From positions 1 to 64,000 of the forward strand of contig MU008185.1 of NCBI GenBank assembly GCA_010909165.1: a DNA stretch of 64,000 bases, read 5' to 3'. The notes beneath the pieces are model-generated. The model had not been told where the DNA came from. It saw only the letters and a program-made list of their open reading frames with translations, and did no database searches. Positions 11,989 to 58,009 of this stretch are shown here, piece by piece. Positions within the stretch are counted from its first letter, which is position 1. Every line of letters starts with the position of its first letter. The translations under genes were made by a program, and so were the position numbers. Source of the stretch: Anthoceros angustus. Taxonomy: Eukaryota > Plantae > Anthocerotophyta.

Positions 11989-12018
11989 CGTTGTTTTGGA
12001 TCCTCAAATGTAGTAGTG
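11989..12018 (-). repeat. Right CACTA terminal inverted repeat
   Basis: Reverse complement of the left TIR (29/30 match). Confidence 0.95.
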
Positions 12019-13717: not shown

Positions 13718-13784
13718 CCCACACCGCAATTGCTACAACCTACAACGGAATACGGATGATGTCGAACCTCCGAGCTACCCACTC

Positions 13785-25975: not shown

Positions 25976-26690
25976 CCTCCTCGCTCTCTTGTGAGCGATC
26001 ATGATTCCAGTTTACGTCCCGCTCGCAAGCGGTTCATTGTGGTCTTGGCACCAAGCTCATTCATCGCCTTTTATCCTCGACGGATGGTGCTACGGAGCGA
26101 GCTAATCAAGTTTTAGAGGATATACTCCGTGCTTATGCAGTGCACCAAACTCGGTGGACTTTCTCCACCTCGTTGAGTTTGCCTACAACAACGCCCCTAA
26201 CGCCTCAACCCGAGTTACTCCATTCTTGTTCAACAAAGGTTTTCACCCCGCACGTTGCTTTCGCTTCCTTGCCTTCCGCTTGTGTCCCCGCTTGTCGATT
26301 TTCTCACCAACGTGTCCAAATTCTGCAGAGGCTCAGTTTGCCCATGGAACCCAAAACCAAGCCCAATCGCCAATCATCGCCGTCCTCAAGAATTTGCTTG
26401 GTACCTATGTCTTCTCTCGCCGAATTTATCCCTTCACGGGATTCGTAAGATTTCCTGCTTTTGTTGGTCCTTACCGTATCCTCCGCTGCATTGGCCTGTG
26501 GCCTATGAGCTTGCCCTTCCTCCCGAATCTCGCATTCACCCCGCCTTCCGAACACGAACCATGTTTTGATCGCACGACACTTGCCGCGCGCCCGAGCTCG
26601 AGTATGCTCACATTGACCGATGCACTTCATCCTTCCACCGCTCGAACGACAATAGAATCTACCACTGCATATTTCAAAGCCCTTGCACTC
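25975..26690 (+). mobile_element. Ty3/gypsy integrase fragment, 3' part
   Basis: ORF 26154 DFLHLVEFAYNNAPNASTRVTPF...FVGPYRIL. Confidence 0.88.
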
Positions 26691-27149
26691 ACGATCGGAA
26701 AAAGTGGGCTCGGAACTCATCTTGCGGGTTGCTCGCTCGATCGCCATATCGAAGATGATGATTTGCAAGTTGGTTTCAAAGACATGGTAAGCGACATGGT
26801 ACCACGTGATTCCAGCCGTCGACGATCGATGTTTGGAATTTGAGGAGCATGGAGTGAATGCCTTTTATCATGTAAAAAAATGTTTCGTTCTCATTTCTCA
26901 TCATGATGATCTCACCAACGTTAACGTGAACGTCGGTGTGATGCTTGCAAATGCGCGAAGGAAAGAAATGATGTTCGATATGCTGCTCTTTAGTGAAAGC
27001 TTAATTTAATATTTAATTGTAGCTAGCCCGGCCACACAAGGGCGATTGTCAGCTTTGAAGCATAGACCAATGTTGCAGAAGGATGCAAACAGCTTGAGAG
27101 GAGTCTCTCAAAGCGAAAACAAGCTAAACTAGGCATGTTCGTTGTTCTA

Positions 27150-28336
27150 ATTATTTATCCTTGTTGCTTCCAAATAAATCCAGCCAAGGATCCAGGAAAC
27201 TGGTGCTCACAAATCATGGTAATGGGTAGGAGGAAGCCACCTCCAAACCGCAGCGTTGTCGACATCGACACCCACCACCTTGCCCTCGTTATCGGGCATG
27301 AGATATATGCGGCCCGCCACGACTCTCATATGAAAAGACATATGGTCGTCAACGGCCGGCGATGCTGAAGATGGAAGCGGGCATGGTGGCCATCACCCAG
27401 ACATGCTCGCAAAATCTACACCGCACTTCAAACATGGGCGATCCGAATCGCCGCCACCCTATGGCCACGCACACAGAGCGGTCTCGCATGTTGAAGTGTC
27501 CCTTGCATTTAAGAACTTGGAATCTCGCACTAGGCTTGCGAATCATATAGCTCCAACCGCCCGCTGCATAAGACGCGATGTGCAACTGCGACATCCTCAT
27601 GAGGCACGAGAGCACGCTGCCCACAAACACTGCACATATCGAACAAAGCGAACAAGCACGTCCATGGCAGGTTGTCTCACTCCACCTCCAAAGCGGAGTC
27701 GAAGACGGTCGACACAGTTTGTCCATGTTCTCCACACCCCACCGACTCCTGGATTCACCGCCACCAGCTTGAGGGAGCGCTGGCGTCCACCCACACGCCC
27801 GCACATGATGGAGCCGCAAGTCACCCGGGAGAGCCGCGTGGCCCAGAGCGCACCACGGTTGCCTGGCGCGGATGGCCATCCGCCCGCCGCTTGCCGCCGG
27901 CGGACATGAGCAAGCCGCATGCCGCTACTTGGGAGCTCCAAAACCCCCGTCATGTTTCCTGGGCGACGCCGACGGACTGTCCGACCGCGGCTTGGCATCC
28001 ACGACGGAGCTATACCGCCGTTGGAGGCGGTCGTGAGACGCACGAGGCTTTGCCAGCGTAGGTTGTAAAGCCTGCCACGAAAAGCATCCAATCCCGTTCT
28101 CCCGCTCGCAATTCCACCCGCTCCTTCAACAACAAGGGCGACAACACGGCCTTGTTCAACTCTCTGCACACCGTGCGCAATCGCAGCAGGCTCGGCACCG
28201 GCACCTTTGCTAGGATCGTCATCACAATGTCGTGAGGCGGTCACTCCATTCATCTCCACCCTCCTCGGCATCCATCCTTGTCTCACACCCTTCCACCTCG
28301 CATCCATCCTTGTCTCACACCTTCCACCTCATCCAT
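27150..28336 (-). CDS. F-box protein, copy 5
   Basis: ORF 28010..28225 reads MTILAKVPVPSLLRLRTVCRELNKAVLSPLLLKERVELR, the cleanest F-box copy. Confidence 0.82.
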
Positions 28337-29344
28337 CCCACCACCGCATTGCTACAACCTACAACGGAATACGGATGATGTCGAACCTCCGATAGCTACC
28401 CACTCCGACCATGTATATAGAGCTCTAGGCCTTGAAAAGCTAGCTCGAAGCGAGAGCTCAAAGAAGAAGCAAGTGAGTCGATGATTATTTTGGTGTGTGG
28501 GATCGCACATATATAGCCTTTACAAATTTGGGCTTGGCGATTCTGTTCTTCAACTCACCTCCAAACTACGCCACAGGATATAGAGCTCTAGGCCTTGCAA
28601 AGCTAGCTCAAGGGACGAAGCAAGTGAGTCCGATAATAATTTTGGTGTGTGGGATCGCATATATAGCCTTTAAAATTTGGTCTTGGTAGATTCTCGGTGT
28701 TCTTCAACTCACCTCCAAACTACGTCACGGATATAGAGCTAAGACATGCAAAGCTAGTTCGAGGGAGAAGCTTAAGGGAAGAAGATGCAAGTGAGTCTAG
28801 ATTCTCATAAGATTCTAGTGGACACCGACTTTCCAATAGCATGTTGCGAACCTACATACATATGTATATATGCGATTTTGGCATCTTCTCTACGTTGGAT
28901 ATGAGTGCAAAGTGCACATGGGAAAGCAGGCATTGTATATATATGTGGAGGAGATGGACAAGCCTCGAGCGCATACAGCATACGATATCCTTCATTGGAT
29001 GTGAATGCAAAGCGCACATGGGAGAAAAATAATTGGTTTTATTAAAGAAAGAGAATAGATTGGGGTCACCATCTATGAAAGGACATCAAAGGAAGATCGC
29101 AAGGATTGCTATAGATAGGAGCAATCCGAAACTGCCCAAGTGGGATGAAGAGGTGGCTTGCATGCATTGCCCTATGCTTAGTGACCTTGAAAGCCATCCG
29201 TTAGCTATTGCTAACCATGTTTCATTAACACTAATCAATACTTAATTAATATAAGCGCTTTAGATTAATTAATACTAATTACTTAAAGACAAGTCATTAG
29301 ATTAATTAATGCTAATCAAACACTAAACCCAAGTGCAGAGTAGT

Positions 29345-29766
29345 GTCACACGCAGATGACATCCCTTAAGTTCCCCATATTTGCGGGCTTTGATTTCAAG
29401 CCCACGATGTTCCATCTACGGTCATAAATCTTACTACTACCACTCTCAATCGGCTCTATTTTTGGCCTCACTCAATCGACGTCCGAGATTATGTCCTCCT
29501 TTGCAACTTATGCCAATGCAACAAAGCTTGTCACCAACGCCTTGCCGGCTGCTCCAACCCTTGCCTCCCCGCCTCGAGCAAGTCACACTTGACTTCATAA
29601 CCGGATTGCCTCAATGCCATCGGCTTTGATGCGTTCTTTGGTCTTCACGAATAAGCTTACTCATCAAGTGCTCCTTGCCTCCACCATCGAGACATGCTCT
29701 CTTGAACAAACGACTTATTCGGAAAGTGGTTTATCGTGCCCATGGCCTCCCTCGCTCTCTTGTGAG
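29345..29766 (+). mobile_element. Ty3/gypsy integrase fragment, 5' part, cut off at 29766
   Basis: Matches other copies up to HGLPRSLV(S), then switches abruptly to unrelated sequence. Confidence 0.85.
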
Positions 29767-29777
29767 GGATCGTGTAT

Positions 29778-32800: not shown

Positions 32801-33000
32801 CAGTGAGGGAAAATCAAGGGCAAGAAAAGGCAGTGATGTTTAAAGTGATGACAAACAATTGCAAACCCAACCTGACCTTTCTGCTGGTCGCACGAGGCTC
32901 CTCTGCAACGTTCTCCTCCTGTCACGAGGTGGTGGGTGTGATGTGAGCATGGAGCTCTCGCGGGCCAGGCGTTAGAGGGCGGCGGCGAGACCATGGTGAA
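29900..33000 (-). CDS. Multi-exon gene of unknown function (cargo of cassette A); boundaries approximate
   Basis: Short open minus-strand segments bounded by AG/GT splice sites, e.g. DIKRTLNNDSIGVKRTLVERFNGISMQTMLEGYQSSIQAVLE (~31050-31180) and YNLALRNAGKQAVAAKNIKDKVDKIDNNIDNAAISNQ (~30890-31000); lies downstream of the TATA box at ~33370. Confidence 0.45.
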
Positions 33001-33079
33001 CCTTCACGCTCCAGACCCGAGGCAGCGGAGAGCAGCTGGCGGCGTTGTGGGCGTGATAGTTAGCGGGAGGCTGGTAGTC

Positions 33080-33380
33080 CCATTTTAGGGTTCCAGAAGG
33101 TTCGAGGGTCTGTCTGCGTGGCAGTTTGTGGCCAGCCTGCGTTTTACGCCCTGCTGTTTAGAGCTTCGGATTTTAGGTTTGGATCTGCATGGCTAGGTTT
33201 GGAATAGAATGACTAGGTTTGGTTGAGGGGTGGCGGCGGCGGTCGAATGGCGAACCGAGGTTGGTTCGGTGTCCGGCTCGGAAGCTTAGGTTCGGCATTT
33301 TCAAATTAGGTCTGGTAGAGAGAGAGTGGCGGCGCCGACAGAGCGAGAACGGGTAGGGTTTGGTGGCCTATATAAGGCGC
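33080..33380 (-). promoter_or_regulatory. Core promoter/5'UTR of cassette A: TATA box, (CT)n Y-patch, clustered AAACC(C)TA telo-box-like motifs
   Basis: Minus strand CTTATATAGGCCACCAAAACCCTA..TTCTCGCTCTGTCGGCGCCGCCACTCTCTCTCTACCAGACC; homologous to 53060-53400 and 58010-58310. Confidence 0.65.
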
Positions 33381-33479
33381 TCCGTTGGGAGTTCAAAGTC
33401 TTTTCGTGCTGTCTGTGGGGATGGAGTGCGAGGTTGCGTAGCTGCGGTGTGTTAGGGTTTGTAGCTGCTGTTGTGTTTT

Positions 33480-34135
33480 AGGCTTAGCGCTCAATGTGTA
33501 GGGGAAGGCCAAATTGTGTGTGTTCTTTGAAGTTGTATTTCAAGGGCCAAGGCTCTTTCACTATTGTTACGTTTCCGAAGTCCAAGGTCTTTTAGGTAGC
33601 GCTTTTTGGCGCTCTCATAGTGTAGACCTGCCTGTGGTGTCGTTTGTTCCTGTGTCGCGCCTTATTTGCTTCGCGGTACGCTCGCTTCAAGGTGCTTCCA
33701 GGGTCTGCTCCAAAGGCTTAGGACCTGTCGAGTTCTAGTTTCGCAGGCCAATGTTCTTTCAGGCTCTGTTCCCAAGGCTAAGGCCTTCTGTGTGCTGTCC
33801 TTCGAAGGCCTAGGTGTTCCAGGCTATGCTCCGAAGGCTAAGTTTTTGTTCAAGTTTTCCAGGCTCTGCCCCGAAGCTTAAGGCCTTTGTTCAAGGTTCT
33901 TTCAGGCTCTGCTCCGAAGGCTCGTGCCTTTTGCCAGTGTTTGTTCGAAGGCCAAGGTCTCTCGAAAGTTTGTTTCGAAGGCCAAGGTCGTTTTGCTGCC
34001 CTGTTTTGGTTCTTTTCGAAAGGCAGGGGGTTTCCCAGGTCCGAAGGTCAAGGTGTCCACATAGGTCCAGTTGTTCTTGCGTCCAAGGCCAAGGTGTTTT
34101 TAACCGGCCGCTTCGCTTTAGGGTGAAGGCCTTTC
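33480..34135 (-). repeat. Array of ACCTTGGCCTTCG-like motifs (cassette A)
   Basis: CGAAGGCCAAGGT / CGAAGGCTAAG recurs every ~25-35 bp. Confidence 0.8.
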
Positions 34136-34329
34136 GCTCCCATGTGAAGTTTGTCTTTTCGCGTTTTACGTTGTTGTCTGTTGCCTCGTTCTTTCCATTG
34201 TTGTTTTGGCTTCTGTTTTGTGCGGTTTTTGTCTTTGATTGTCGCTATGGCCGTAGTGTATTCGGCTCTCAGTTACTGGTCTCTGTTTGCACTGCGGCTT
34301 GTTTTCGTATGTCGTCCTCTGTGCTAAAG

Positions 34330-37300
34330 TGTGGTGGGCAGATCCCGGGGCTTCCGAGATTCACCCTCTAGTGGCCACACTTATCCCACTCGCTAAGTAC
34401 AATAGGTTTCGTCCCATGAGACTCTTGTTTGTCGGTCACCAGCATCCAAGGCACAAACCACCGCCTCTTCACACCCCAAGCTCCCTCACACAGTGGAGCA
34501 ACTTCAACTCACTCCACGAGTGAGCCCATGCCTCACCATGCGCTCGTCAATCACCGCTTCTAGACCTACAACGACACCCCTCGACTATAGGTCCACCCCG
34601 GCGAGGGTACGCCGTAGGGACCCCCTACGTTGCAGCGACTTCACCACCCGTGATCGTCCACTATTCCTTTCCCATCGCCTTCCCACAATTGGCACACCTC
34701 AACCACCAACTCTAACGGCACGCCACTCCCGCCTCTCCGAATCACCACCCCTGGACCTACAACGACATCCTACAGTCGTAGGTCCCACCCTATGGCGGGT
34801 CCACCGTCTTGCGTAGGGACCCCCGGCAGCGCGACTTCTCCACCCGTGATTTTGAGACCTTAGCCCGGCTTCCGGTCTCGGTTTGGTGCGATTTGGGACC
34901 CTCCCTTAGGCTCGACTTGGGCCTTCTTCTTACTCCTAATCTCTACCTACTCCTCTACTCAACATTCAGCTCCACATTCTCCTCAACATACACTCACCTC
35001 AACTCAACTCCTCATCCTCCTAATCTAACCTTACTTCAAGCTCACTGGCCCTAGCTCGCCTTACGGCTGCCTGGGTCCGCCTACAAGCCAACAAGTTCTT
35101 CCTTGGGCGGTTGCTATGAGTTTGCACCAGACCGAGAACCTCCGAGTCTTTCCTGTAGTCTACCCTCAAGCCGAGAGTTCCTTGGGCATCGCCACACACC
35201 CAAAGCAAAGCAATTTCACAAGAACCATTCACAGGGGAGCAACTGCGGGCGCCCGCAAGGAGCGAGCTCCGCCAAGCACTCCGACCACCGCAAACTCCTC
35301 TACCAGACTGCGTTAGCTTGCACGGCACGAAATTCCTTCACAAGGAGCAAAGGACTCATGAGTTTGGGAGCGCAAGAAGACGATAATTTTACTTCACAAG
35401 CTCCCTCCTTTGTAGGGAGGTCCTCACACAGCCTCCCCTCGGCGCCCCTCCGCACGCCTCACTCCTTATTTTAGTGTATCCCACCGCCGATTTTAAGTTC
35501 GACATCCAAGCATCTTGGGTGAAATTCTATTCTAGCAAATTCTACCTATGTGAGCCTTAATGGCTCATCAACATTCCTATCCAGCTAGTCAACACACCCT
35601 CTTGGGTTGACAAGCATTAATCTGTCCTCCCTAAAGAAAAGTCTCCCCAAGCAATGAGCCCACGCTCCAAGCTACCACCACCCTCTTCAATTACCTCTAG
35701 ATGCCGCCGCATCTGGGTGATCCTACGGATGTAGGGCCACCCTCTACACCTCCTACGGACGTAGGGTCACTTCTTATGGCCCTACCGCCCACGCCTCCAC
35801 GCAAGAAGGTCTCCCGTGGCGGATCTTGCTCCATGCCTTCCTCTTCCTCCTCCGAGTCATCCTCTCGGCCTTCCATACACTCGGATGTGTTTGTCCGGAA
35901 ACTGGAATGCCACCAGTGCCTAGCCTCCACTGCATCTCCTTCAAGTTCCTCTCTTCTCCCCCTAGCAACCAACTTGCCCTTCTTAGGTGCAGCCACCATC
36001 TTGTACCTTCAAAATAAGCGCACAAACAAGACAAGCTTGGGCACGCCCACATGCTCGTTTCCACCTAGTTGTCACCTCGGTGTCTACACACAATTCGAGA
36101 TTTCTTCACTCGCCACATAAAATCCACCAAGAGAGCAACTTCAGCCCTTTTCCACTTACTTCCTCTTCACTCCACGGTCCCACCTAGCTCAAACTTGATG
36201 TCCTCACATACAACTCCTTATCCAAATCCCTCACTTGCAAGGTCCTAGGCACAAAATTCAGCTCCGCCCCTCTTCACAGTTTCAAATCCCTTCACACACA
36301 ACTCCTTATGCACGCACACCTCCTTCTCCTTGCACACACACGGCTCAGCGTTCCCACCAAGTCCTTGCTCTAGCTTTCCTGCATGCACAAGCTCTTCCTG
36401 CACCGCAGCTTCCTAGGTGCCACTCCCTACACACCGCTTGCATGGCCCTTTGGTAGCACAAAAAACTCTTGATATAGGCCTTGATTCCTTGCCATGTGGC
36501 ACTATTTCCACCGTCCTCGATTTAGTAGCCCTACTTGTTATAAACACCCTACACTACCCCTTACATATTTATGGATTATTATTCCTAATATACCCTATTT
36601 ATCCTCAACCTTGCATATAGCTCTTTAACAACTTCCTAGGTTGAAACCCCGCCTCACTTTTGCTTCCAAGTATCCAAGTAGGGTGTCGCGCCCCACTTCC
36701 GCTGCCCACGAGGGACCCCACTCTTCCCACCAAGACACCTCACCCTACCTATCTACCTACCTACCTACCTACCTACCTATCTACCTACCTACCTACCTAC
36801 ATCCTACCCATGTAGGGCCACCTCACCCACATACCACCCTATCTCGTCCCCCACTTGTTCCCTACCGCCTACCCCATCAAGGGACACGCCATCCTACCCA
36901 CATACACAACCTACTGCCACCCTACATCCTACCCACATACATACATGTAGGGCCACCCTCTACACCTCCCTCGTGGGGTGCACCTCCTTCTCCCTACGAG
37001 GGGAGTGCCATGCTCCTCACCCCACCGCCACCCTACACCTCCCTCGTGGGGTGCACCACCCAAGCACCTCAATTAGCTCCTCATCCTCCTAATCTAACCT
37101 TACTTCAAGCTCACTGGCCCTAGCTCGCCCTTACAGCTGGCACAGGTGCGCCTACAAGCCAACAAGTTCTTCCTTGGGCGGTTGCTATGAGTTTGCACAG
37201 ACGGCGAGAACCTCCGAGTCTTTCCTGTAGTCTACCCTCAAGCCGAGTTCCTTGGGCATCGCCACACACCCAAAGCAAAGCAATTTCACAACCATTCACA

Positions 37301-40300
37301 AGGAGCAACTGCGGGCGCCCGCAAGGAGCGAGCCCTCCGCCAAGCACTCCGACCACCGCAAACTCCCTCTCTACCGCCTGCGTTAGCTTGCGGCCACGAA
37401 ATTCCTTCACAAGGAGCAAAGGACTCGGAGTTTGGGAGCGCAAGACGATAATTTTACTTCACAAGCTCCCTCCTTTGTAGGGAGGTCCTCTGACCTCCCA
37501 CAGCGCGCCCTCCGCCGCCTCACTCCTTATTTTAGTGTATCCTCAGTGACTTTAAGTTCGACATCCAAGCATCTTGGGTGTTCTAGCAAATTCTACCTAT
37601 GTGAGCCTTAATGGCTCACTGTCAACATTCCTATCTAGCTAGTCAACACCCTCTTGGGTTGACAAGCATTAATCTGTCCTCCCTAAAGAAAAGTCTCCCC
37701 AAGCAATGAGCCCACGCTCCAAGCTACCACCACCTCTTCAATTACCTCTAGATGCTGCAGGTGATCCTACGGATGTAGGGCCACCCTCTACACCTCGGAC
37801 GTAGGGTCACTTCTTATGGCCCTACTCCACGCTCTCCAAGAAGGTCTCCCGTGGCGGATCTTGCTCCATGCCTTCCTCTTCCTCCTCCGAGTCATCCTCT
37901 CGGCCTTCCATACAGCCGGATGTGTTGGGCTCCTGAATGCCACCAGTGCCTAGCCTCCACTGCTTCAAGCATCTGCCTCTTCCCTAGCAACCAACTTGCC
38001 CTTCTTAGGTGCAGGCGCTTTCACCATCTTGTACCTTCAAAATAAGCGCACAAACAAGACAAGCTTGGCACGCCCACATGCTCGTTTCCACCTAGTTGTC
38101 ACCTCGGTGTCTACACACAATTGAGATTTCTTCACTCGCCACATAAAATCCACCAAGAGCAACTTGCCCTTTTCCACTTACTTCCTCTTCACTCCACGGT
38201 CCCACCTAGCTCAAACTTGATGTCCTCACATACAACTCCTTATGTAAATCCCTCACTTGCAAGGTCCTAGGCACAAAATTCAGCTCCCCCTCTTCACGTG
38301 CTTCAAATCCCTTCACACACAACTCCTTATGCACCTCCTTCTCCTTGCACACACACGGCTCAGCGTTCCCACCAAGTCCTTGCTCTAGCTTTCCTGCATG
38401 CACAAGCTCTTGTGCAATTCCTCATGACTTCCTAGGTGCCACTCCCTACACACCCATGGCCCTTTGGTAGTGGCACTCTTGATATAGTTGATTCCTTGCC
38501 ATGTGGCACTATTTCCACCGTCCTCGATTTAGTAGCCCTACTTGTTATAAACACCCTACACTACCTTACATATTTATGGATTATTATTCCTAATATACCC
38601 TATTTATCCTCAACCTTGCATATAGCTCTTTAACAACTTCCTAGGTTGAAACCCCGCCTCACTTTTGCTTCCAAGTATCCAAGTAGGGTGTCGCGCCCCA
38701 CTTCCGCTGCCCACGAGGGACCCCACTCTTCCCACCAAGACACCTCACCCCACCCATCCACCTACCACTAGTTACCGCCTGTGTCCTGCCACCCACATCC
38801 CACCCTTAGCCACCGCCACCCACATACCACCCCTATCTCGTCCCCCACTTGTTCCCTACCTTGTTCCCTACCCATGTAGGGCCACCACAGTCACCCTACC
38901 TACCTACCTACCTACCTACCTACCTACCTACCTACATCCTACCCACATACATACATGTAGGGCCACCTCACCCTACACCTCCCTCGTGGGGTGCACCTCC
39001 TCCCTACGAGGGGAGTGCCATGCTCCTCACCCCACCGCCACCCACACCTCTCCCAGAGGGGCACCACCCAACACTCTCCCAATTAGCTCCTCATCCATAA
39101 CACCTCACACCTAGGTTGAAACCCCGCCATACAAAAGCTTGCTTCCCAAGTATCCAAGTAGGGTGTCGCGCCCCACTCCGCCACGAGACCTCACTCTCCC
39201 TACAGAGACACTCTCACCCTACCTATCTACCTACCTACCTACACCTCACACACATCCTACCCAGGGCCACCTCACCCACATACTACCCGCATCTCATCCC
39301 CTACTTGTTCCCTACCTTGTTCCCTACCCATGTAGGGCCACCTCACCCTACCCACATACATACATGGGACCTGCCTACCCATGTAGGGTCACCTTGTTAC
39401 CCACATACTACCTTAACTCGTCTCGGACCCTCCGCCTACACCTCCCTCGAGGGTGCACCTCCCTCCCATGTGGGAGTGCCATGCCCTACGTCCACTGCCA
39501 CCCCTACACCTACTCCGTAGGGTGCACCACCCAACACTCTCCCAATTAGCTCTCATGCGATAAGAATATAACACCTCACACAAAAGGTGCCCATCCAGAG
39601 ATCCACCCCTAGGACGCTTAACTCGGGTTCTTACATTCCATTGTCCAACACACCCAATTGGCTTGTGCATAACACTCATCAAGAATAAAATGAACTTATC
39701 CTCGGTGAACTTCTCACGCCTCACAACATCTCGTACCAACCCTCCTTGCTATCCATTTCTCCTCGCCATCACACGGCCTCCTTCACTTTGACTTGCCCCC
39801 CACCGCAAATTCCGCCGCCATGATGCACACCTGTGATCCTTCACCATGTTGCCCCCCACCGCAACACGCCTTCCTATGGTTTGGCCACACCTCCATCTTG
39901 CAGCCCTACAAATTCAGCCGTGAGTGCTCTACCATGGCCTTTCCTAGTTCAACACACGGCCCTATCATGCCATCCTCCATCGTGACTCCATTAGAGCACT
40001 TCCATGTGCCTGACCGCCATGGCCTCCTCTTGCAACCCTTGTGGCTGCTCACCTCAACATGAGCTCCTCGCTCCCATCCTTGCACCGATTGCTGCTCCTC
40101 TCGCATGCCGAGCTCCCAACCTAGAGCCCGCAGCAGATCCCCGCATTCCACCATTACGCACTTGGCCCATCTTCCGCAGAACCCTTGCCACACATCTCTA
40201 CCTAGCAGTCCTCCTCGCAAAATCTCAGCAATATGAGCACCGCCCATGTCTCACTTCTTCCACACATGTGGCAAATTACTTTGCCTTCCTCAAACTTGGT

Positions 40301-40546
40301 GGTGGTCCCCAATAATCGGGCCTTTGCCTCTGCAAGCCTATCAACATGCTTGTGCAGCAACCTCAAGCTACTTCCTTGGCTTAATTGCCTTCACCCTCTA
40401 CTCCTCATTCTCCAACAAATTGCCTCAAGATCTTGACAATTCTCTTCCACTTCACTTCAATTCTCTCGCTTCGCTCTGCTCTAGTTTTGCTCTAGTTTGA
40501 TCCTTTTGATCCAAAAGTAGGAGTGCCCAAACTTTCATATTCCACA
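34330..40546 (-). repeat. 3' LTR (~6.2 kb, including a ~2-kb internal tandem duplication)
   Basis: Collinear with 41878-47615; ~35010-36730 is repeated at ~37080-38750; contains (CTAC)n tracts. Confidence 0.88.
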
Positions 40547-41825
40547 TACTCCCCACCTCACTTGTTTGCGTCCCGCAAACAACCTACCATTGTAGATACT
40601 CCATCGCCTTCCACCATTCATCGTAGTGACAAGTGGGTCATGTTAGATTCCTAGCTACGTACACTTTCCGTGAAAATACAAAACATCACTTCCTTGCAAA
40701 CACACAACCTCTCCATCTCATTGTCTGCATGTTGTGGAAGGACATCTTCCAAATTCCAAGACCTCGAGCTCCTAAATGTGCCATGAATGCTCCCAAGCCT
40801 CCCACCAAATTTCCACATAATCCTTCAGAACTTCAAAAGCTTGCAATTCCTCTCTTCAAGGCTTTGGTCATCACTCCTTCCTCAAGATGTCCACTTCAAT
40901 CCGCAATTCCTCCTCAAATTCTTCCAACTTCCTTCAAGTGACTCTCTCCCCACCTCGTTCCTTGTCTTCCATCTCCAATCTGCTCATATCAAGACAAAGC
41001 AAAGCCTCAAGATGCAACTTGAAGCAACCTCCTTGAGATAGCTCCTCCACTTGACTCCTCCTTGCAACATAGGCAACCCCATCTTGAGCACGGTACCAAC
41101 CCGTCTGCATACAACAAGAACACTCCTGGCGACAATAAATTGGAAGCACTCGCCCGCTTCAATGGCCTTAGACATCTCCCGGTGAATAGCTACACAACGC
41201 TCAACGTCAATTACTTCCTCCTTGATGCCAAAAGAAGCATCCAAGCCCTCCAAGCTCGAATTCAAGTTCCTCCTCTCAACCACCCAAGGCAAGCACCTTG
41301 AGCATGTCCCCTGGTGGGCCCTCTTCCTCAAAGTAAAGCCCCCTATCACCTAGCCTCCATAAACTATCCATTGGTCAAGAGCACCTCCACTTCCTCCTAG
41401 ACATCATCCTCATGAAATCTTGGGCGAAGCAACAACATATGCCCACTCTCAAGCTCTTTCTTCTAACCAACGCCCCACAATAGCCTCTCATGCTCGCATT
41501 CTTAGCTCGGCCTCCAAATCCCTCGGAAATTACTAACCGCTGGCTCAATTCTTGACCCTCACCCCACAACTCCTCAGCAACCTCCTTCCTCTTGTTGTCC
41601 GTGAGCACATCCTTCTCCGCTCTTAGAAACTACCTCTTCTTCCTCAAGTAACCCTTGAAGATGTTAGCACATGTAGCTTCCTCCGCAAGAGCTCTCTCCT
41701 CGCCTTCTTCCTCTACCGTCATGCAACTCTCACACCACTTGCAAAAATCAGCGGGCGATCTCCTCTCTATGCGCAATAAAACTTCTTCTTCTCATCCCCG
41801 ATTAGAGATTCTCAACAATGTTCAT
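39700..41825 (-). CDS. Gag-like ORF (coiled-coil, Cys/His knuckle-like motif), frameshifted; extends into the LTR
   Basis: ATG ~35 bp after the PBS; E/K/R-rich coding-like sequence continues across the PPT; ICHMCGRS..H...C knuckle-like motif at ~40230-40280 (needs one frameshift). The Gag call rests mainly on position and this motif. Confidence 0.55.
40547..40564 (-). promoter_or_regulatory. Polypurine tract
   Basis: Minus strand CAAGTGAGGTGGGGAGTA directly before the TGTGG start of the 3' LTR. Confidence 0.85.
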
Positions 41826-41858
41826 GCCTCTTCCACTACCGACTTGCCAAAGCAAAGA

Positions 41859-41873
41859 GTCCCGACAGCGCCA
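41859..41873 (-). promoter_or_regulatory. Primer binding site
   Basis: Minus strand (TTTT)TGGCGCTGTCGGGAC immediately after the ...CCACA end of the 5' LTR; TGGCGC.. class PBS, exact tRNA not assigned. Confidence 0.8.
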
Positions 41874-41877
41874 AAAA

Positions 41878-44800
41878 TGTGGGAGGAAAACCGGGCTTCG
41901 AGATTCACCCTCTAGTGGCCACACTTATCCCAATCGTCGCTAAGTACAATAGGTTTCGTCCCATGAGACTCTTGTTTGTCAGGTCACCAGCATCCAAGGC
42001 ACAAACCACACACCTCTTCACACCCGCAAGCTCCCTCACACAGCTGGAGCAACTTCAACTCACTCCACACACAGCAGCCACGCCTCACCATGCTGCTCCG
42101 TCAATCACCGCTTCCAGACCTACAATGATACCCTACGACTATAGGTCCACACCCCACGGCAGTAGGTCAGCGGGCTACGCACGTAGGGACCCCCTACGTT
42201 GCAACGCGACTTCACCACCCTGTGATCGTCCACTATTCCTTTCCCATCGCCTTCCCACAATTGGCACACCTCAACCACCAACACGCCCGCGCCACTCCCG
42301 CGCTCGGTGAATCACCACTCCTGGACCTACAACGACATCCTACAGTCGTAGGTCCCACCCTACGGCGGTAGGTCCACCGCCTACGCACATAGGGACCCCC
42401 TACAGCGCAGCGCGACTTCTCCACCCCGTGATTTTGAGACCTTAGCCCAGCTTCCAGTCTCGGTTTGGTGCAGATTTGGGACCCCTCCCTTAGGCTCTGA
42501 CTTGGGCCTTCTTCTTACTCCTAATCTCTACCTACTCCTCTACTCAACATTCAGCTCCACATTCTCCTCAACATACACTCACCTCAACTCAACTCCTCAT
42601 CCTCCTAATCTAACCTTACTTCAAGCTCACGGCCCTAGCTCGCCTTACGCAGCTGCCTGGGTCCGCCTACAAGCCAACAAGTTCTTCCTTGGGCGGTTGC
42701 TATGAGTTTGCACTGCAGAGAACCTCCGAGTCTTTCCTGTAGTCTACCCTCAAGCCGAGAGTTCCTTGGGCATCGCCACACACCCAAAGCAAAGCAATTT
42801 CACAAAGAACCATTCACAAGGAGCAACCCAGAGGCGCCGCAAGGAGCGAGCCTCCGCCAAGCACTCCGACCACCGCAAACTCCCTACCAGACCTGCTTGC
42901 TGACGAAATTCCTTCACAAGGAGCAAAGGACTCATGAGTTTGGGAGCGCAAGACGATAATTTTACTTCACAAGCTCCCTCCTTTATAGGGAGGTCCTCAC
43001 ATACAGCCTCCCGGCGCCCTCCTGCACCGCCTCACTCCTTATTTTAGTGTATCCTACCGGATTTTAAGTTCGACATCCAAGCATCTTGGGTAAAATTCTA
43101 TTCTAGCAACTTCACCTATGTGAGCCTTAATGGCTCTGTCAACATTCCTATCTAGCTAGTCAACACACCCTCAACCACCAACTCTAACGGCGGCACTCCG
43201 CCTTTGCTCGGTGATCACTCACGGACCTACAACGACATCCTGATCGTAGGTCCCACCCATGTAGGTCCACCGTCTACGCGTAGGGACCCCCTACGGTAGC
43301 GCGACTTCTCCACCCGTGATTTTGAGACCTTAGCCCAGCTTCCAGTCTCGGTTTGGTGCATTTGGGACCCCTCCCTTAGGCTCTGACTTGGGCCTTCTTC
43401 TTACTCCTAATCTCTACCTACTCCTCTACTCAACATTCAGCTCCACATTCTCCTCAACATACACTCACCTCAACTCAACTCCTCATCCTCCTAATCTAAC
43501 CTTACTTCAAGCTCACGGCCCTAGCTCGCCCTTACAGCTGGCTGCACAGGTGCCTACAAGCCAACAAGTTCTTCCTTGGGCGGTTGCTATGAGTTTGCAC
43601 AGACGTGAGAACCTCCGAGTCTTTCCTGTAGTCTACCCTCAAGCCGAGTTCCTTGGGCATCGCCACACACCCAAAGCAATTTCACACCATTCACAAGGAG
43701 CAACTGCGGGCGCCGCAAGGAGCCTCCGCCAAGCACTCCGACCATGACTCCCTCTCTACCGGCCTTCGTTAGCTTGCGGCGGCACGAACTTCCTTCACAA
43801 GGAGCAAAGGACTCGCGGTTTGGGAGCGCAAGACGATAATTTTACTTCACAAGCTCCCTCCTTTTGTAGGGAGGTCCTCACATCTGACCTCCCACAGCGC
43901 GCCCTCCAGCCTGCCTCACTCCTTATTTTAGTGTATCCTACCGTCGACTTTAAGTTCGACATCCAAGCATCTTGGGTAAAATTCTATTCTAGCAACTTCA
44001 CCTATGTGAGCCTTAATGGCTCTGTCAACATTCCTATCTAGCTAGTCAACACACCCTCGGGTTGACAAGCATTAATGCCTGTCCTCCTCTAAAGAAAAGT
44101 CTCCCCAAGCAATGAGCCCACGCTCCAAGCTACCACCAACCCTTCAATTACCTCTAGATGCCGCCGCATCACGGGTGATCCTACGGATGTAGGGCCACCC
44201 TCTACACCTCCTACGGACGTGGGTCAACTTTATGGCCCTACCGCCTCCACGCTCTCCACTGCAAGAAGGTCTCCCGTGAGCGGATCTTGCTCCATGCCTT
44301 CCTCTTCCTCCTCCGAGTCATCCTCTCGGCCTTCCATACACGCCGGATGTGCTCGAAACCATATGAATGCCACCAAGTCCTTGCTCTAGCTTTCCTGCAT
44401 GCACAAGCTCTTCCTGGCTCCCTAGCAACCAACTTGCCCTTCTTAGGTGCGGGCGCCCGCAGGCGAGCCTCTAAGCACTCCGACCATGCAAACTCCCTCT
44501 CTACCGGCCTTCGTTAGCTTGCGTAGGCACGAACTTCCTTCACAAGGAGCAAAGGACTCGCGGTTTGGGAGCGCAAGACGATAATTTTACTTCACAAGCT
44601 CCCTCCTTTTATAGGGAGGTCCTCACATCTGACCTCCCACAGCGCGCCCTCCAGCCTGCCTCACTCCTTATTTTAGTGTATCCTCGCCGGACTTTAAGTT
44701 CGACATCCAAGCATCTTGGGTAAAATTCTATTCTAGCAACTTCACCTATGTGAGCCTTAATGGCTCTGTCAACATTCCTATCTAGCTAGTCAACACACCC

Positions 44801-47615
44801 TCTGGGTTGACAAGCATTAATACTGTCCTCCTCTAAAGAAAAGTCTCCCCAAGCAATGAGCTCCAAGCTACCACCACCCTCTTCAATTACCTCTAGATCG
44901 TCGCCTGGTGATCCCTACGGATGTAGGGCCACCCTCTACACCTCCTACGGACGTGGGGTCAACTTCTTATGGCCCTACCGCCTCCACGCTCTCCACTGCA
45001 AGAAGGTCTCCCGTGGCGGATCTTGCTCCATGCCTTCCTCTTCCTCCTCCGAGTCATCCTCTCGGCCTTCCATATATGTGTTCATCCTTAAGTGCCTAGC
45101 CTCTCCAATTCAAGCATCCTCTTCCCAGCAACCAACTTGCCCTTCTTAGGTGCGCTTTCACCATCTTGTACCTTCAAAATAAGCGCACAAACAAGACAAG
45201 CTTGGGCGCCCACATGCTCGTTTCCACCTAGTTGTCACCTCGGTGTCTACACACAATTGCGAGATTTCTTCACTCGCCACATAAAATCCACCAAGAGAGC
45301 AACTTCTTTTCCACTTACTTCCTCTTCACTCCACGGTCCCACCTAGCTCAAACTTGATGTCCTCACACAACTCCTTATGCTTCAAATCCCTCACTTGCAA
45401 GGTCCTAGGCACAAAATTCAGCGCCTTGCCCTCTTCACAGTTGTGCTTCAAATCCCTTCACACACAACTCCTTATGCACGCACACCTCCTTCTCCTTGCA
45501 CACACACGCGCTTCCCACCAAGTCCTTGCTCTAGCTTTCCTGCATGCACAAGCTCTCGCATTCCAGGCTTCCTAGGTGCCACTCCCTACACACCGCTTGC
45601 ATGGCCCCCATAGTGACTCCACATAGGCTGATTCCTTGCCATGTGCTTCCCGTCCTCGATTTAGTAGCCCTACTTGTTATAAACACCCTACACTACCCCC
45701 CACATATTTATGGATTATTATTCCTAATATATCCTATTTATCCTCAACCCCATAGCTTTTTAAGCAACTCCTAGGTGAAACCGCCTTCCAAAAGCTTTCC
45801 TCATCCAAGTAGGGTGTCGCGCCCACCTCCGCCTCACCTATCTACCTACCTACCTAGTTACCGCCTAGGAGCCCTGCTACCCTACATCCTACCCATGTAG
45901 GGCCACCCCGGGTCACCCCACATACCACTATCTCCGTCCCCTACTTGTTCCCACCAAGTCCTTGCTCTAGCTTTCCTGCATGCACAAGCTCTTCCTGCAA
46001 TTCCTCTCTTCCTAGGTGCCACTCCCTACACACCGCTTGGTGGTGCCAAAAACTCTTGATATGCTATTGATTCCTTGCCATGTGTCCACCGTCCTCGATT
46101 TAGTAGCCCTACTTGTTATAAACACCCTACACTACACCACATATTTATGGATTATTATTCCTAATATATCCTATTTATCCTCAACCTTGCATATACTCTA
46201 ACAACTTCCTAGGTTGACACCCTATCCCACCCCTATCCTAGGGGACTCCACCTCACCTATCTACCTACCTAATTAACCGTAGAGTCCCCTACCCTACATC
46301 CTACCCATGTAGCCACCGTCACCCTACATACTACCCGCATCTCTCCCCTACTTGTTCCCTACTTGTTCCCTACCCCAGAGGGGTACAGTGGGGACCGCCC
46401 CTACCATATACATGTAGGGACCCCGCCTACCTATGTAGGGTCCCCTACCCTACATACTACACCTTAACCTGTCCGGGACCCTCCGCCTACACCTCCGTGA
46501 GGGTGCACCTCCCTCCCTGGAGGGAGTGCCATGCCCCACGCCCACCGCCACCCCTACACCTACTCCGCTGTAGGGTGCACCACCCAACACCTCCCACCAG
46601 CTCTCATGTGACTCAAATAACACCTCACACAAAGGCCCCATCTTCGATCCACCCCTAGGACGCTTAACTCGAGTTCTTACATTCCATTGTCCAACACACC
46701 CAATTGGCTTGTGCATAACACTCATCAAGAATAAAATGAACTTATCCCGGTGAACTTCTCACGCCTCACAACATCTCGTATCAACCCTCCTTGCTATCCA
46801 TTTCTCCTCGCGGCCACCACAACGGCCTCCCTTCACTTTGACTTGCCCCACCGCAAATTCCGCCGTCATGATGCACACCGTTGTGATCCCTTCACCATGT
46901 TGCGGCCCACCGCAACACGCCTTCCTATGGTTTGGCCACACCTCCATCTTGCAGCCCATCTACAAATTCAGCTGCCGTGAGTGCTCTACCATGGCCTTTC
47001 CTAGTTCAACACACGGCCCTATCATGCCATCCTCCCATCGTGACTCCATTAAGAGCACTTCCATGTGCCTCGACCGCCATGGCCTCCTCTTGCAACCCTT
47101 GTGGCTGCTCACCACGAACATGAGCTCCTCGCTCCCATCCTTGCACCAATTGCTCCTCTCTCGCATGCCGAGCTCCCAACCTAGAGCCCTGCAGCAGATC
47201 CTGCACAATTCCACCATTACGGGCACTTGGCCCATCTTCCGCAGCAACCCTTGCCACACATCTCTACCTAGCAGTCCTCCTTCGCAAAATCTCAGCAATA
47301 TGATCACTGCCCATGTCTCACTTCTTCCACACATGTGGCAAATTACTTTGCCTTCCCTCAAACTTGGTGGTGGTCCCCAATAATCGGGCCTTTGCCTCTG
47401 CAAGCCTATCAACAGCTGCTTGCAGCAACCTCAAGCTACTTCCTTGGCTTAATTGCCTTCACCCTCTACTCCTCATTCTCCAACAAATTGCCTCAAGATC
47501 TTGACAATTCTCTTCCACTTCACTTCAATTCTCTCGTTCGCTCTGCTCTAGTTTTGCTCTAGTTTGATCCTTTTTGATCCAAAAAGTAGGAGTGCCCAAA
47601 CTTTCATATTCCACA
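41878..47615 (-). repeat. 5' LTR (~5.7 kb, with several internal partial duplications)
   Basis: Starts TGTGGGAGG...GAGATTCACCCTCTAGTGGCCACAC like 34330; ends ACTTTCATATTCCACA like 40546. Confidence 0.88.
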
Positions 47616-48109
47616 TAAAGGTGTTGCGTGTGCGCGTCTTGTCATTTCTTAGGGAATGACTCTTTGCATGCATAGATGTTTTCTGATTCTTGTCTGTTAC
47701 GCCCTTCGTTGCTAGTTATTCTTGTTGCGTTGTTTTCTAGTTCGAGTGTTCGTGTTTTGCCGTGACGCCTTGACCTTTGGTGTCTCGCGTGACGCCTTGA
47801 CCTTTGGTGTCTCGCCAAGGAAAACGACAAGATTAACTATTTTTGACTTAGAGCTTTCGAACTTGTTTTGTTGCAGCTAGGCTTAGTTTGTAAGGTCAGC
47901 TGCATGCTGTGGTGATTGTGCTCTTGTAGCCAGACTCAAAGGCTCGATTCTAGTTCCCGAGTGTTCTTGTTTCGTGTTTTGCCGACCTTTGGTGTCCGGT
48001 TCGCTTATGAAAATCCAAAGTAACCTCTTCGACTTAGAGCTTTCGAGGTTTTGTGGTTGCGCCTGGCTTAGTTTGTGGGCACACCGCAAGGTGTGATGAT
48101 TGTACTCTC

Positions 48110-48405
48110 CCGCTTTTGTTCATTGTCTTCTTACCATCTTGCTTTTTTTGATGCAGTCAAGTTTTCCCGTAAAAGTTGGACTCTCAGTTCGGCACCCAGC
48201 TTGGTACGTAATCGACAGAGCAGTATTGTTCATATGTCTCTCAGTTCGGCACCCAGCTTTGTACGCAATCGACAGTGTAGTCTTGTTCATTGTCTTCTTA
48301 CTATCTGCTCGCTTTTTTTGATGCAGTCAAGTTTTCCCGTCAAAGTTGGACTCTCAGTTCGGCACCCAACTTGGTACGTTATTGACAGTGTAGTCTTGTT
48401 CAGTC
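48110..48405. repeat. Local tandem duplications (CTCTCAGTTCGGCACCCA..GTACG..TGACAG x3)
   Basis: Direct repeats at ~48181, 48238, 48351; also a 27-bp doublet at 47761-47813. Confidence 0.75.
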
Positions 48406-49246
48406 TTCGTGTGAGTTGCTTTATTATTCAGTACAGTAATTCAGTACTTACTAATCTTGTTCTCCTGTTACAACTCTTTTGGTTTTCCTGTCTTACCAGG
48501 TCCTGGTTTCCCGAGTCGTTGGTTCTTTTAAAAGGTGTGGTTGATATTGATGTCTTTAATTTGGTCAAGAAAGTACCTTCTAATGTTTTGGCCACTTTGT
48601 GAATAGTTTGCTGACACGCGTGTTCTGGATGCAGAAAAGCTTGAATCAAGCTACCGGACGTCTTGCAGGATTTCGTCCTGGCGCGACTTCTTAGTGTGGT
48701 ATGCAATTCTGTGTCATACATTTTGATAGTCGATTGGGTTGTTTTTTGGCGTAAAGTTATTTTGTAGCGCATGTGCTTTTTCAGCGCTTTCGTACGATCA
48801 AAGCGCATTTCGATGCATGTCAAGCTCAGTAGTTTGATGGCTTTTTCACTATAATTTTTGTCACTTGAGTTAGTAGTCACTTGTTCACTATAATTGTTGG
48901 CATCTGACTATATCCGTAGTATCTCACTGTGTTTCTGTATGCAGGTTTCAGCCGAGGTTTCTGTCGTGAGATGCCCCGCAGGTATGCAGTGACTCGTAGT
49001 TGAGTATCGTTGTCTGTTTTGTCTGTATTCGATCGTCTGTATTTCCATGTCATGCATAAAAGTTAGTTACTTTCGTGTTCACAGGCGTGACATAATGGTT
49101 ATTCCGTGACTTGTTGTTTATCGCTGGCGCTGCTGCCGATCCGGTTTTGGTTATTATTATCGGTGTATTGTCAGACTTCAATCCGTTTCTGTCTCATTCT
49201 TATTCTAAGGTTCTTGCCTTGATGCGCATAATCCTTGTCCCGATTT

Positions 49247-52669: not shown

Positions 52670-53030
52670 CCATGGCCTTTAGAACAGAGCATTCAAAACG
52701 GGGCAACAAAACAACAGTGGCCTTCGAAACAGAGCATAGAATAGACCTTGGCCTTCAAACAAAAGCTGGAGAAAGGCCTTAGCCTGTATGACGCTAAAAG
52801 AACCTTGGCCTTCAAAAGAGTGGACAAGGCCATAGCCTCGAACACGGATAAAAGAACCTTGGCGTAAACAAAGACCTATGCCTTTAGAGCATAGCAACAC
52901 CTTGGCCTACGAAAAGACAGAGAAGAACTTTGCCTTGAGCGAGCGCAACACCATAGCCTCGAAAAGCCAAAGATGCATAAAAGACCTATGCCTTCGGAGC
53001 AAGAGCGCAGCACCTAAGCCTACGAAAAGA
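52670..53030 (+). repeat. Array of ACCTTGGCCTTCG-like motifs (cassette B)
   Basis: ACCTTGGCCTTC / CCTATGCCTT repeats, reverse complement of the 33480-34135 array. Confidence 0.78.
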
Positions 53031-53059
53031 CAGATGAGGAAAGAAATCTATCTCCGACA

Positions 53060-53400
53060 AGCCTCTTATATAGGCCAGCAAACCTAGCCGTTCTCACTCT
53101 GTTGGCGCCTCCATTCTCTCTCTACCAAACCACATTTGAATTTCCCGGACCTAAAATACCGAGGGGTCCAAACATATCTAGGTTCGCATCTGCTGCCGCC
53201 TCCTCACCCAAACCTAGTTTCCAAGTTCTAAACCTAGCTTACCTTCACCAAACCTAGCCTACCTCCACCAAACCTAATCTCCGAACCCCAAAGCGGCGGG
53301 GCGTAACACAAACCTGCCGTCGAATCACAGCCTGCCACGTTGACACCAGCCGTGAACCATCTAGAACCCTAAAACTTCAGTACATAAACAACTGCCACCC
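53060..53400 (+). promoter_or_regulatory. Core promoter/5'UTR of cassette B
   Basis: CTTATATAGGCC at 53065, then TTCTCACTCTGTTGGCGCCTCCATTCTCTCTCTACC and repeated AAACCTA. Confidence 0.65.
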
Positions 53401-53819: not shown

Positions 53820-55580
53820 CTGCAGGTCTCCATCATCAAGGTCTTGACATGCTCTTCCAGGTTGGTTTCAGCATCACATTACCTGTTTCCTTGCGATATG
53901 TTGGTCTGTTGCTATCTGTATGCGTGTACGGCATGTGCGGTGATTCCTTTGCCATGTGTTTGTGCATGTTTTAAAGCTTCTTCAGCTCTGGTCGAAAGCC
54001 ACTCAAAGAGTAACGTCCTCACGAGTCTCAGGAGCCGGAGAGGACGGACATCTGGCAGCACCAGATGCTGGTCCACACCGGCTTCCACTAGGCGTTCCAA
54101 GGCGTCATCCCCGAACCCAACCCTCACGAGAACCACACCATCGAGTACATCGCAGAAGTCATCCAGAGGTACTTAGTGAACCATGGGAGCGGCAAGCAAG
54201 CGTTTGCAAGACCCGGACGTGAAGGATGGCTTCCAACCCGAGGTGATGGTGCTAGCCCCTCGGAACGCCTTTGCCGGTTTCTTCAGTTTTGATCATCCGC
54301 GATTTGCCGGCCGATTGTGCATTTGTGATGTCATCCTTGCCGGTCTTTCTTGGGCCGATGCTAATCTCCTGTTGTATCTCGGAAGCCTTCGAGGTGTTGG
54401 CTGAAGACGACCAGCCGGCTCAGGCCCAGCGCATCCTGGCTCCATCGCATAGCTGGGCGGCGCCGGCCACCGGTGCCGGTGCAGACAACGCTGCAACGAC
54501 AAGCTTTCCGCTGACGCCCCTGCGCGGCATCACGCCGGAGTCCCAGAGTTGGGAATCGATCGTCGCCATGGCCTCGATCGGTCGAGATTGAGAAACGGAT
54601 GAACAAGGCGGGGAGGGAAAGTCATACCGGATCGTGAAGGTACCGGATCGGCTCGTGCCGCTCTCCTTGAAGTTCCAGAGTTTGAATGCGCTGGCCACTC
54701 GCACGGAAGGTGAAGCTGGGACGTGAAGGTTTGGCGTGCGTGCGCGCAGGCGCCCAAGCTCAACACGAGCTCCCCGATCGACCATGTGCGAGGCACTACA
54801 CGTCCGCCATGGTGGTGGCGGGCGGCAAGCAAGCGTTTGCCAAGACCCGGACGTGAAGGATGGCTTCCAACCCGAGGTGATGGTGCTAGCCCCTGGGCGC
54901 TCGGTTACGGTTTCTTCGCTTTGATCATCTGGATTTGCGGCCGGTTGTGCATTTGTGATGTCATCCTTGCTGGTCTTTCTTGGGCCGATGCTAATCTCCT
55001 GTTGTATCTCGGAAGCCTTCGAGCAAGTTGTTGGCCTGATTCGAGCCAGCGGCCAGCGCATCATCCGCCGGGCATAGCGGCGCGCCTGGCCACCTACGGT
55101 GCGCTGGTGCAGACAACGCCTGTGACAAGCTTTCATGTTGCCGTGCTGTGCATCACGCCGGAGTCCCAGAGTTGGGAATCGATCGTTCGCCATGGCACGG
55201 GATCGGCGAGATTGAGAAACGGGATGAACAAGGCGGGGAGGGAAAGTCATACCGGATCGTGAAGGTACGGGCCCCGGCTCGGCGTGCCGCTCTCCTTGAA
55301 GTTCGAGTTTGAATGCTGGCTACCCGCCGGAAGGTGAAGCGGGGCGTGAAGGTTTGGCGTGCGTGCGCGAGGCGCCCAAGCTCAACACGAGCTCCCCGAT
55401 CGACCATGTGCGAGGCACTACACGTCCGCCATGGTGGTGGCGGGCGATGGCGTTCGCCACCGAGAGAGAGGACATCATCCGCCACCCGACAATCTCGTGG
55501 TTCGTGGCTGGCCGCCGTGCTTCTGTGGAAGTGCCGGAGCGCACCTGGCAGGCCGGATCTCTTTGCAGCAGAAGAAATAG
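53820..55580 (+). CDS. Cassette B cargo gene, possibly a degenerate Ulp1-like (C48) peptidase; contains a ~640-bp tandem duplication
   Basis: GC-rich coding-like sequence; EVMVLAP...FFALII.DL...LCICDVIL resembles the Ulp1 strand pattern P...HW.L..ID....I...DSL. ~54185-54820 is repeated at ~54820-55445. Confidence 0.35.
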
Positions 55581-57850: not shown

Positions 57851-58009
57851 CTCTTATAAATCGGGATTCCAAAAGGAATCCAGGTACCCCTAACTCCGTG
57901 GAGGAGCTTCGGACATGCGGAAACCTTGGACTACAAAACAAAGGCGACTAGAGGAAGGACCTCGGCCCTTGAAGCTACCCCAGGAAAAGACAAGACCATC
58001 CGAAGAAAG

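What the first reader, a model, noticed from the sequence alone, without database searches (positions are those of the whole stretch)
34330..47615. Retroelement that is ~90% LTR: two ~6-kb LTRs around a 1.33-kb interior
Seen: intact TSD, TG..CA ends, PBS and PPT, so this structure integrated as a unit without pol. Even after removing internal duplications the LTR is ~4 kb. Known: TRIMs have short LTRs, LARDs have long LTRs with long non-coding interiors, and TR-GAGs keep gag. This combination of giant LTRs with a tiny gag-like interior is atypical.
Basis: partly seen in the sequence, partly recalled or inferred. Interest (0 to 1): 0.7.

Follow-up and report, generated by a model that had tools for sequence, protein, structure and literature searches.

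The report
Long-LTR plant retroelement lacking pol
This is a real plant jumping gene made mostly of its two end repeats, with no enzyme gene detected inside, so it likely borrows enzymes from a partner; about 2 kb of each '6-kb' end is likely an assembly error, and the same layout is already described in sugar beet.

Summary
The element is real: TAAAG target-site duplication, TG..CA ends, minus-strand PBS and PPT, LTRs of 6,217 and 5,738 bp around 1,331 bp (90% LTR). The two LTRs carry different internal tandem duplications; without them they are 4,148 and 3,660 bp (85% LTR). The duplicates differ mostly by indels clustered at CG/CHG sites, like noisy long-read sequence; their variant sharing is inconsistent with a simple history; the same back-jumps occur in two unrelated repeats of the window. 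They are likely assembly artefacts (about 75%), not tested directly on reads. Short-read contigs of run X1 tile the interior except a 217-bp hole, with no long branch into other sequence and with variants, which fits a small family rather than a one-off deletion. 'Gag-like' is unconfirmed: no search found a homologue. The TSD alone does not show insertion without pol. The architecture is known: sugar beet TRIM-116 to -127 have 3.4-5.5-kb LTRs and are 90-95% LTR (TRIM-127: 5,533/12,284 bp). The scan noted a similar layout in another genome (e1-9190551), and no look-alike sequence. Verdict: new member of a known kind, low interest.

The parts
34325..34329 (.). target-site duplication, left copy (TAAAG)
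34330..40546 (-). 3' LTR of the element (left LTR), 6,217 bp as assembled, 4,148 bp without the 2.07-kb duplication
35008..39096 (.). 2.07-kb tandem duplication in the left LTR (35008-37086 / 37077-39096), 10-bp exact microhomology at 37077-37086; likely assembly artefact
38640..39581 (.). more diverged ~470-bp direct repeat with CCTA microsatellite (75% alike); the right LTR has about one and a half units; possibly real
40547..40561 (-). polypurine tract GTGAGGTGGGGAGTA abutting the 3' LTR
   Evidence: X1 contig of 295 nt spans LTR end, PPT and interior (record 3)
40650..41830 (-). likely coding interior, broken by frameshifts and stops in this assembly; gag identity not shown
   Evidence: stop depletion on minus strand only; no Pfam or homologue; X1 contigs differ from it mostly by gaps
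41860..41873 (-). PBS-like TGGCGCTGTCGGGA, 4-nt spacer from the 5' LTR; 9 of 12 letters match the Asp-type PBS of Athila-linked beet families
41878..47615 (-). 5' LTR of the element (right LTR), 5,738 bp as assembled, 3,660 bp without three duplications
42269..46359 (.). three staggered tandem duplications in the right LTR (42269-43172/43169-44058; 43705-44451/44448-45154; 45512-45952/45948-46359), exact microhomology 4, 4 and 5-6 bp, plus a 47-bp patch at 44370-44416 matching another part of the LTR; likely assembly artefacts
42926..43170 (-). LTR module with a TATA-like motif (42980-42989) about 1.1 kb upstream of the PBS, candidate core promoter (inferred); also present in X2 and X3 contigs that continue into different sequence
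47616..47620 (.). target-site duplication, right copy (TAAAG)

Best explanation
This is a real, likely young LTR retroelement with no pol domain detected, LTRs of 3.7-4.1 kb once internal duplications are removed and a 1.33-kb likely coding interior; it likely moves with enzymes borrowed from an autonomous Ty3/gypsy partner, and the extra ~2 kb in each LTR is likely an assembly artefact. Shown: TSD, TG..CA ends, PBS and PPT on the minus strand, an interior too short for pol. Inferred, from the standard LTR-retrotransposon cycle: transcription from the right LTR starting near the TATA-like module (U3 about 2.6-3 kb, R+U5 about 1.1 kb), packaging with a partner's reverse transcriptase and integrase, tRNA priming at the PBS, plus-strand priming at the PPT, integration giving the 5-bp TSD. 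The PBS and PPT point weakly to a non-chromovirus (Athila/Tat, OTA) parent, a group with LTRs up to about 5 kb, so the long LTRs are most simply inherited and the interior shortened by loss of pol. The interior most likely encodes a diverged gag remnant (position right after the PBS; not shown).
For: Boundaries and motifs. X1 contigs (82 laid on 40520-41910) cover 40520-41105 and 41323-41910, the share running on into unlike sequence is 0.01, no joints, and variant letters and several indel types are seen, which means more than one copy if the sample is haploid. An X3 contig shares only the 34 nt of LTR end plus PPT and then differs, and X2/X3 contigs share the TATA module and then differ: sister families with the same cis signals. 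Artefact reading: indel openings outnumber substitutions in 11 of 13 copy pairs, with duplicate-duplicate and LTR-LTR pairs alike; differences are enriched near CG/CHG in 14 of 14 pairs (p 0.04 to 8e-19) between identical runs whose longest reach 50-169 nt; the 8 longest X1 pieces differ from the window by 5 substitutions and 33 gap letters; first copies L1+R1 share 10 substitutions against later copies while L1+L2 share 6 against the right LTR in 1,001 columns, which no simple duplication history gives; similar back-jumps lie at 21630, 22339, 25970 and 54822 in unrelated repeats; the host DNA-polymerase-B exon near 1.7-1.8 kb also appears spread over three frames. Precedent: PMC13570524 supplement; PMC6317226 passage on non-chromovirus LTRs up to about 5 kb.
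Against: No genome was held, so no second full copy with its own TSD was seen. X1 may be the sample behind the assembly and single-copy depth is unknown, so copy number is open. No duplication junction was tested directly on reads. All four junctions have exact microhomology (10, 4, 4, 5-6 bp; chance 2e-4 to 3e-2 each), as real template-switch duplications do. The strand-polarity test for read switching gave no clear signal. No gag homologue was found, the PBS match is only 9 of 12, and no autonomous partner was identified.
Confidence: 0.6

Rival explanations
1. Same element, but the duplications are real: four microhomology-mediated tandem duplications after (or during) insertion enlarged this copy's LTRs to about 6 kb and multiplied the TATA module three times in the 5' LTR and twice in the 3' LTR.
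For: Exact microhomology at 4 of 4 junctions; duplicates within one LTR share LTR-specific variants, including an 8-bp indel, so they come from this locus.
Against: Needs four 0.4-2-kb events while the LTRs gained about 0.6-1.5% substitutions; conflicting variant sharing; same pattern in two unrelated repeats of the same 64 kb.
Confidence: 0.2
2. One-off internal deletion (or assembly collapse) of an autonomous element after insertion; the TSD dates from when pol was present.
For: A TSD survives later deletion; X1 depth is higher on an LTR contig (461.8) and on the PPT-junction contig (124.6) than in mid-interior (64.5), so most LTR copies do not carry this interior or are solo (depth is no copy number); no second full copy seen.
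Against: No long loose end or joint in the covered interior (0.01 of 82 contigs run on unlike); interior variants suggest several copies; no pol remnant in Pfam.
Confidence: 0.15
3. The whole structure is an assembly chimera of repeat fragments, not one element.
For: The region is error-rich and tangled.
Against: Exact 5-bp TSD at both TG..CA ends, correctly placed PBS and PPT; an X1 contig spans the LTR-PPT-interior junction.
Confidence: 0.05

Closest known systems
Long-LTR non-autonomous families of sugar beet, TRIM-116 to TRIM-127 (Maiwald et al. 2026, PMC13570524; read: abstract, passages, section 25, supplement 1 parts 3-4 of 43)
   Same: LTRs 3,352-5,533 bp, elements 7.1-12.3 kb, length/(2 x LTR) 1.05-1.11; TRIM-127 has 5,533-bp LTRs in 12,284 bp (interior about 1.2 kb, 90% LTR, 2 copies with TSD). 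This element: 1.11 as assembled, 1.17 de-duplicated.
   Different: Those 12 families have Met-type PBS and no protein domain; this one has an Asp-like PBS, a likely coding interior and lies in a non-flowering plant (host from earlier notes, not tested).
Beet TRIM-113 and other GAG/PROT-retaining families (same supplement)
   Same: 3,247-bp LTRs, 8,174 bp total (interior about 1.7 kb), GAG in all 4 copies, no pol.
   Different: Tekay chromovirus origin and a recognised GAG domain; here gag is not recognised.
TR-GAG (Chaparro et al. 2015, PMC4350172; read: abstract and passages)
   Same: LTRs, PBS, PPT, 5-bp TSD, one likely ORF, no pol.
   Different: Defined as under 4 kb with GAG similarity; this is about 9 kb de-duplicated and GAG similarity was not found.
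LARD (Kalendar et al. 2004; paper not held; definition taken from passages of PMC13570524 and PMC4350172)
   Same: Non-autonomous and over 4 kb.
   Different: LARDs have lost internal coding regions and (recalled) have long interiors; here the interior is short and likely coding.
Non-chromovirus OTA (Athila/Tat) Ty3/gypsy elements (Neumann et al. 2019, PMC6317226; read: passages)
   Same: LTRs up to about 5 kb, 5-bp TSD; PBS 9 of 12 like the Asp-type motif and PPT like that of Athila-linked beet families.
   Different: Membership rests on RT/RH/INT phylogeny, which cannot be done without pol.

Membership tests
non-autonomous LTR retrotransposon (broad sense, PMC13570524) | two direct LTRs with TG..CA ends and a TSD | tested here: met
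non-autonomous LTR retrotransposon (broad sense, PMC13570524) | PBS and PPT next to the LTRs | tested here: met
   the priming tRNA was not identified (no tRNA gene in window; no genome)
non-autonomous LTR retrotransposon (broad sense, PMC13570524) | no complete coding capacity (no pol) | tested here: met
   1,331-bp interior; 0 Pfam families in 9 of 9 interior frames sent
non-autonomous LTR retrotransposon (broad sense, PMC13570524) | several copies with distinct TSDs (mobile as such) | tested here: inconclusive
   interior variants in X1 contigs; no second full copy could be seen
TRIM (strict) | element under 1 kb | tested here: not met
   13,286 bp assembled, 9,139 bp de-duplicated
LARD | element over 4 kb | tested here: met
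LARD | non-coding interior | tested here: inconclusive
   minus-strand stop depletion p about 0.02 but no homologue
TR-GAG | element under 4 kb | tested here: not met
   against PMC4350172
TR-GAG | single ORF similar to GAG capsid | tested here: inconclusive
   frame-broken interior; no hit; the 5' part, where gag would start, was scanned against Pfam only, in short pieces
Athila/Tat (OTA) Ty3/gypsy | RT-RH-INT phylogeny and domain order | not testable with these tools
   no pol in the element, no partner found
Athila/Tat (OTA) Ty3/gypsy | lineage-typical PBS | tested here: inconclusive
   9 of 12 letters match the Asp-type motif printed

The most novel reading that the evidence does not exclude
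The 6-kb LTRs are real: a young pol-less family in a non-flowering plant whose LTRs are growing by repeated microhomology-mediated duplication of the promoter module, differently in each LTR, and whose 1.3-kb interior encodes a protein unrelated to known gags.
Probability: 0.12. Interest if true: 0.5.

Novelty: new member of a known kind. Interest (0 to 1): 0.2.

Why it matters
Modest. It likely extends long-LTR, short-interior non-autonomous retroelements from sugar beet to a non-flowering plant; two paper searches on hornwort elements showed no listing that describes such a family, which is weak evidence of absence. Its practical value is a caution: LTR sizes, LTR-based ages and broken frames in this assembly's methylated repeats are unreliable. 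If the duplications were real, the locus would show LTR growth in progress.

Tried and rejected
Own genome: not held, so no copy search. No RNA holder listed for the interior; not evidence either way. Parts without X1 cover (38580-39315; 41106-41322) prove nothing, and because of such holes the absence of the duplication joints's joint table is not used as evidence. The joint 43168->37683 in X1 and X3 is only the normal LTR continuation, which the window also has. Protein searches: interior frame 40987-41349 gave nothing or two repeat-driven spurious hits, P0001 and P0002; frame 40937-41158 nothing. An ORF inside the LTR (Cys-rich looking frames at 46963-47430) was considered and rejected: no Pfam, atlas or homologue hit, no stop depletion. 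Strand-polarity of C>T versus G>A between duplicates: counts too small, no signal. No Rfam family at gathering score in 33000-49000, no tRNA gene. No empty pre-insertion site in the window. No look-alike windows in the scan's index for interior or LTR. Paper searches gave no source for plant methylation-linked nanopore errors or false tandem duplications that I read; that link rests on my own knowledge. The original LARD paper was not held.

Full report
Observation. The window holds the structure at the stated place. TAAAG flanks it on both sides (34325-34329, 47616-47620); given the TG..CA boundaries, the chance of that match from flank composition is about 4e-4. The left LTR is 34330-40546 (6,217 bp), the right 41878-47615 (5,738 bp), the interior 1,331 bp, so 90.0% is LTR. 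On the minus strand a PBS-like TGGCGCTGTCGGGA follows the right LTR after 4 nt and a purine tract precedes the left LTR: the element reads right to left. A TATA-like motif lies about 1.1 kb upstream of the PBS; taking it as the promoter is inference.

The 6-kb size. The two LTRs are enlarged by different tandem duplications: one of 2.07 kb on the left, three staggered ones of 0.9, 0.74 and 0.44 kb and a 47-bp patch on the right. Without them the LTRs are 4,148 and 3,660 bp, the element 9,139 bp, 85% LTR; the remaining difference is a more diverged 470-bp repeat on the left. LTRs are near-identical at insertion (established), so these duplications either arose at or after insertion or were made by the assembly.

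Evidence for artefact. Indel openings outnumber substitutions in 11 of 13 pairs aligned, and duplicates are as far apart as the two LTRs. Differences fall near CG/CHG motifs more often than background in 14 of 14 pairs (for example 26 of 43 events against 0.29 for the left duplication) and are separated by long identical runs. That fits long-read miscalls in methylated repeats (my own knowledge; hornwort TEs carry CG and CHG methylation according to passages of PMC10952607); deamination would cluster there too but would give transitions, not indels. The 8 longest of 82 X1 contig pieces on the interior differ from the window by 5 substitutions and 33 gap letters, so the window carries indel errors and its broken frames need not mean decay; a host DNA polymerase B exon (Pfam PF00136) also appears spread over three frames (motif recalled). 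In 1,001 ungapped columns of the four- and five-copy segments, the first copies of both LTRs share 10 substitutions against the later copies, while the two left copies share 6 against the right ones; no simple duplication history gives both. Similar back-jumps occur in the 12-30-kb array and at 54.8 kb. Evidence against: all four junctions have exact microhomology (10, 4, 4, 5-6 bp; chance 1.6e-4 to 2.6e-2 each), duplicates come from their own LTR, the strand-polarity test was blank, and no junction was tested on reads. I put artefact at about 75%. True LTR divergence is at most about 1.5% substitutions (least noisy pair) and perhaps 0.6%, so the insertion is likely young.

Family or one-off deletion. 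No genome was held. Run X1 holds 0.39 of the sampled words and may be the sample behind the assembly, so it is not independent. Its contigs cover 40520-41105 and 41323-41910, one spans LTR end, PPT and interior, the share running on into unlike sequence is 0.01 and no joint is listed. Variant letters at three places and several indel types suggest more than one copy if the sample is haploid. The 217-bp uncovered stretch leaves room for a deletion junction, and depth is not copy number. An X3 contig shares only 34 nt of LTR end and PPT, and X2 and X3 contigs share the TATA module and then differ: related families with the same cis signals, among which a partner may lie. The TSD by itself does not show that pol was missing at insertion.

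The interior. Stop triplets are depleted on its minus strand (56 against 67 +/- 5; p about 0.02; the only one of 12 tests). Pfam found nothing in 9 of 9 interior frames. Two of these frames were searched further without a credible hit. The part nearest the PBS, where gag would start, was scanned against Pfam only. A diverged gag remains the likeliest reading by position; it is not shown. An ORF within the LTR was considered and not supported.

Mechanism. Most likely a pol-less derivative of a long-LTR Ty3/gypsy element, mobilised in trans: RNA from the right LTR, packaging with a partner's RT and integrase, tRNA priming at the PBS, PPT priming, integration with a 5-bp TSD. Ends, PBS, PPT and TSD are shown; the rest is inferred from the known cycle. 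The PBS matches the Asp-type motif of Athila-linked beet families at 9 of 12 letters, and non-chromoviruses have LTRs up to about 5 kb (PMC6317226 passage), a weak pointer to an Athila/Tat parent. The host is likely a hornwort according to an earlier unchecked note; I did not test this.

Known kinds. It fails the strict TRIM and TR-GAG size limits and fits LARD only by size. But PMC13570524 shows a continuum, and its supplement (parts 3-4 of 43 read, rows TRIM-70 to -127) lists 12 families, TRIM-116 to -127, with 3,352-5,533-bp LTRs that make 90-95% of the element; TRIM-127 (5,533-bp LTRs, 12,284 bp) nearly equals the layout reported here, and TRIM-113 joins 3,247-bp LTRs to a 1.7-kb interior with GAG. 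The scan also noted giant LTRs with a tiny interior in another genome (e1-9190551).

Verdict. Real element, known architecture, headline size probably inflated by assembly, gag unproven. New member of a known kind; interest 0.2.

Noticed in passing
window 12018-29774: Tandem array of a 3.86-kb unit (about four and a half units, 86-94% alike) whose frames read like integrase C-terminus/chromodomain remnants by eye (no Pfam hit in 5 frames sent); it has back-jumps near 21630, 22339 and 25970 like those in the LTRs. Its end also matches window 1-243.
   Followed up: partly
window 54189-55446: 630-bp tandem duplication, 86% alike, indel-dominated, 3-bp microhomology; same signature as the LTR duplications.
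   Followed up: partly
window about 1400-2500, minus strand: Exons of a family-B DNA polymerase (PF00136, E 7e-7); the conserved motif region appears spread over three frames, a sign of indel errors in host genes too.
   Followed up: partly
window 33083-34024: The left flank is itself a repeat, 65-68% alike to 52675-53374 and 57981-58304 in inverted orientation: the element sits in or beside an older repeat.
   Followed up: partly
window 42926-43170 with 37660-37703: LTR module with the TATA-like motif has the highest summed X1 depth (4,000-9,000 in neighbouring bins) and is embedded in different sequence in X2 and X3 contigs (one of 4,405 nt): a promoter module possibly shared between families.
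   Followed up: no
window 40540-40573: An X3 contig of 567 nt shares only the LTR terminus and PPT: a sister family, candidate partner. A small inverted repeat (GTTTGCG..CGCAAAC) lies just inside the PPT.
   Followed up: no
window 41878-42434: Run X2 (organism B by its code) holds LTR pieces 90-99% alike but no interior cover: the LTR family may be shared with a second organism.
   Followed up: no
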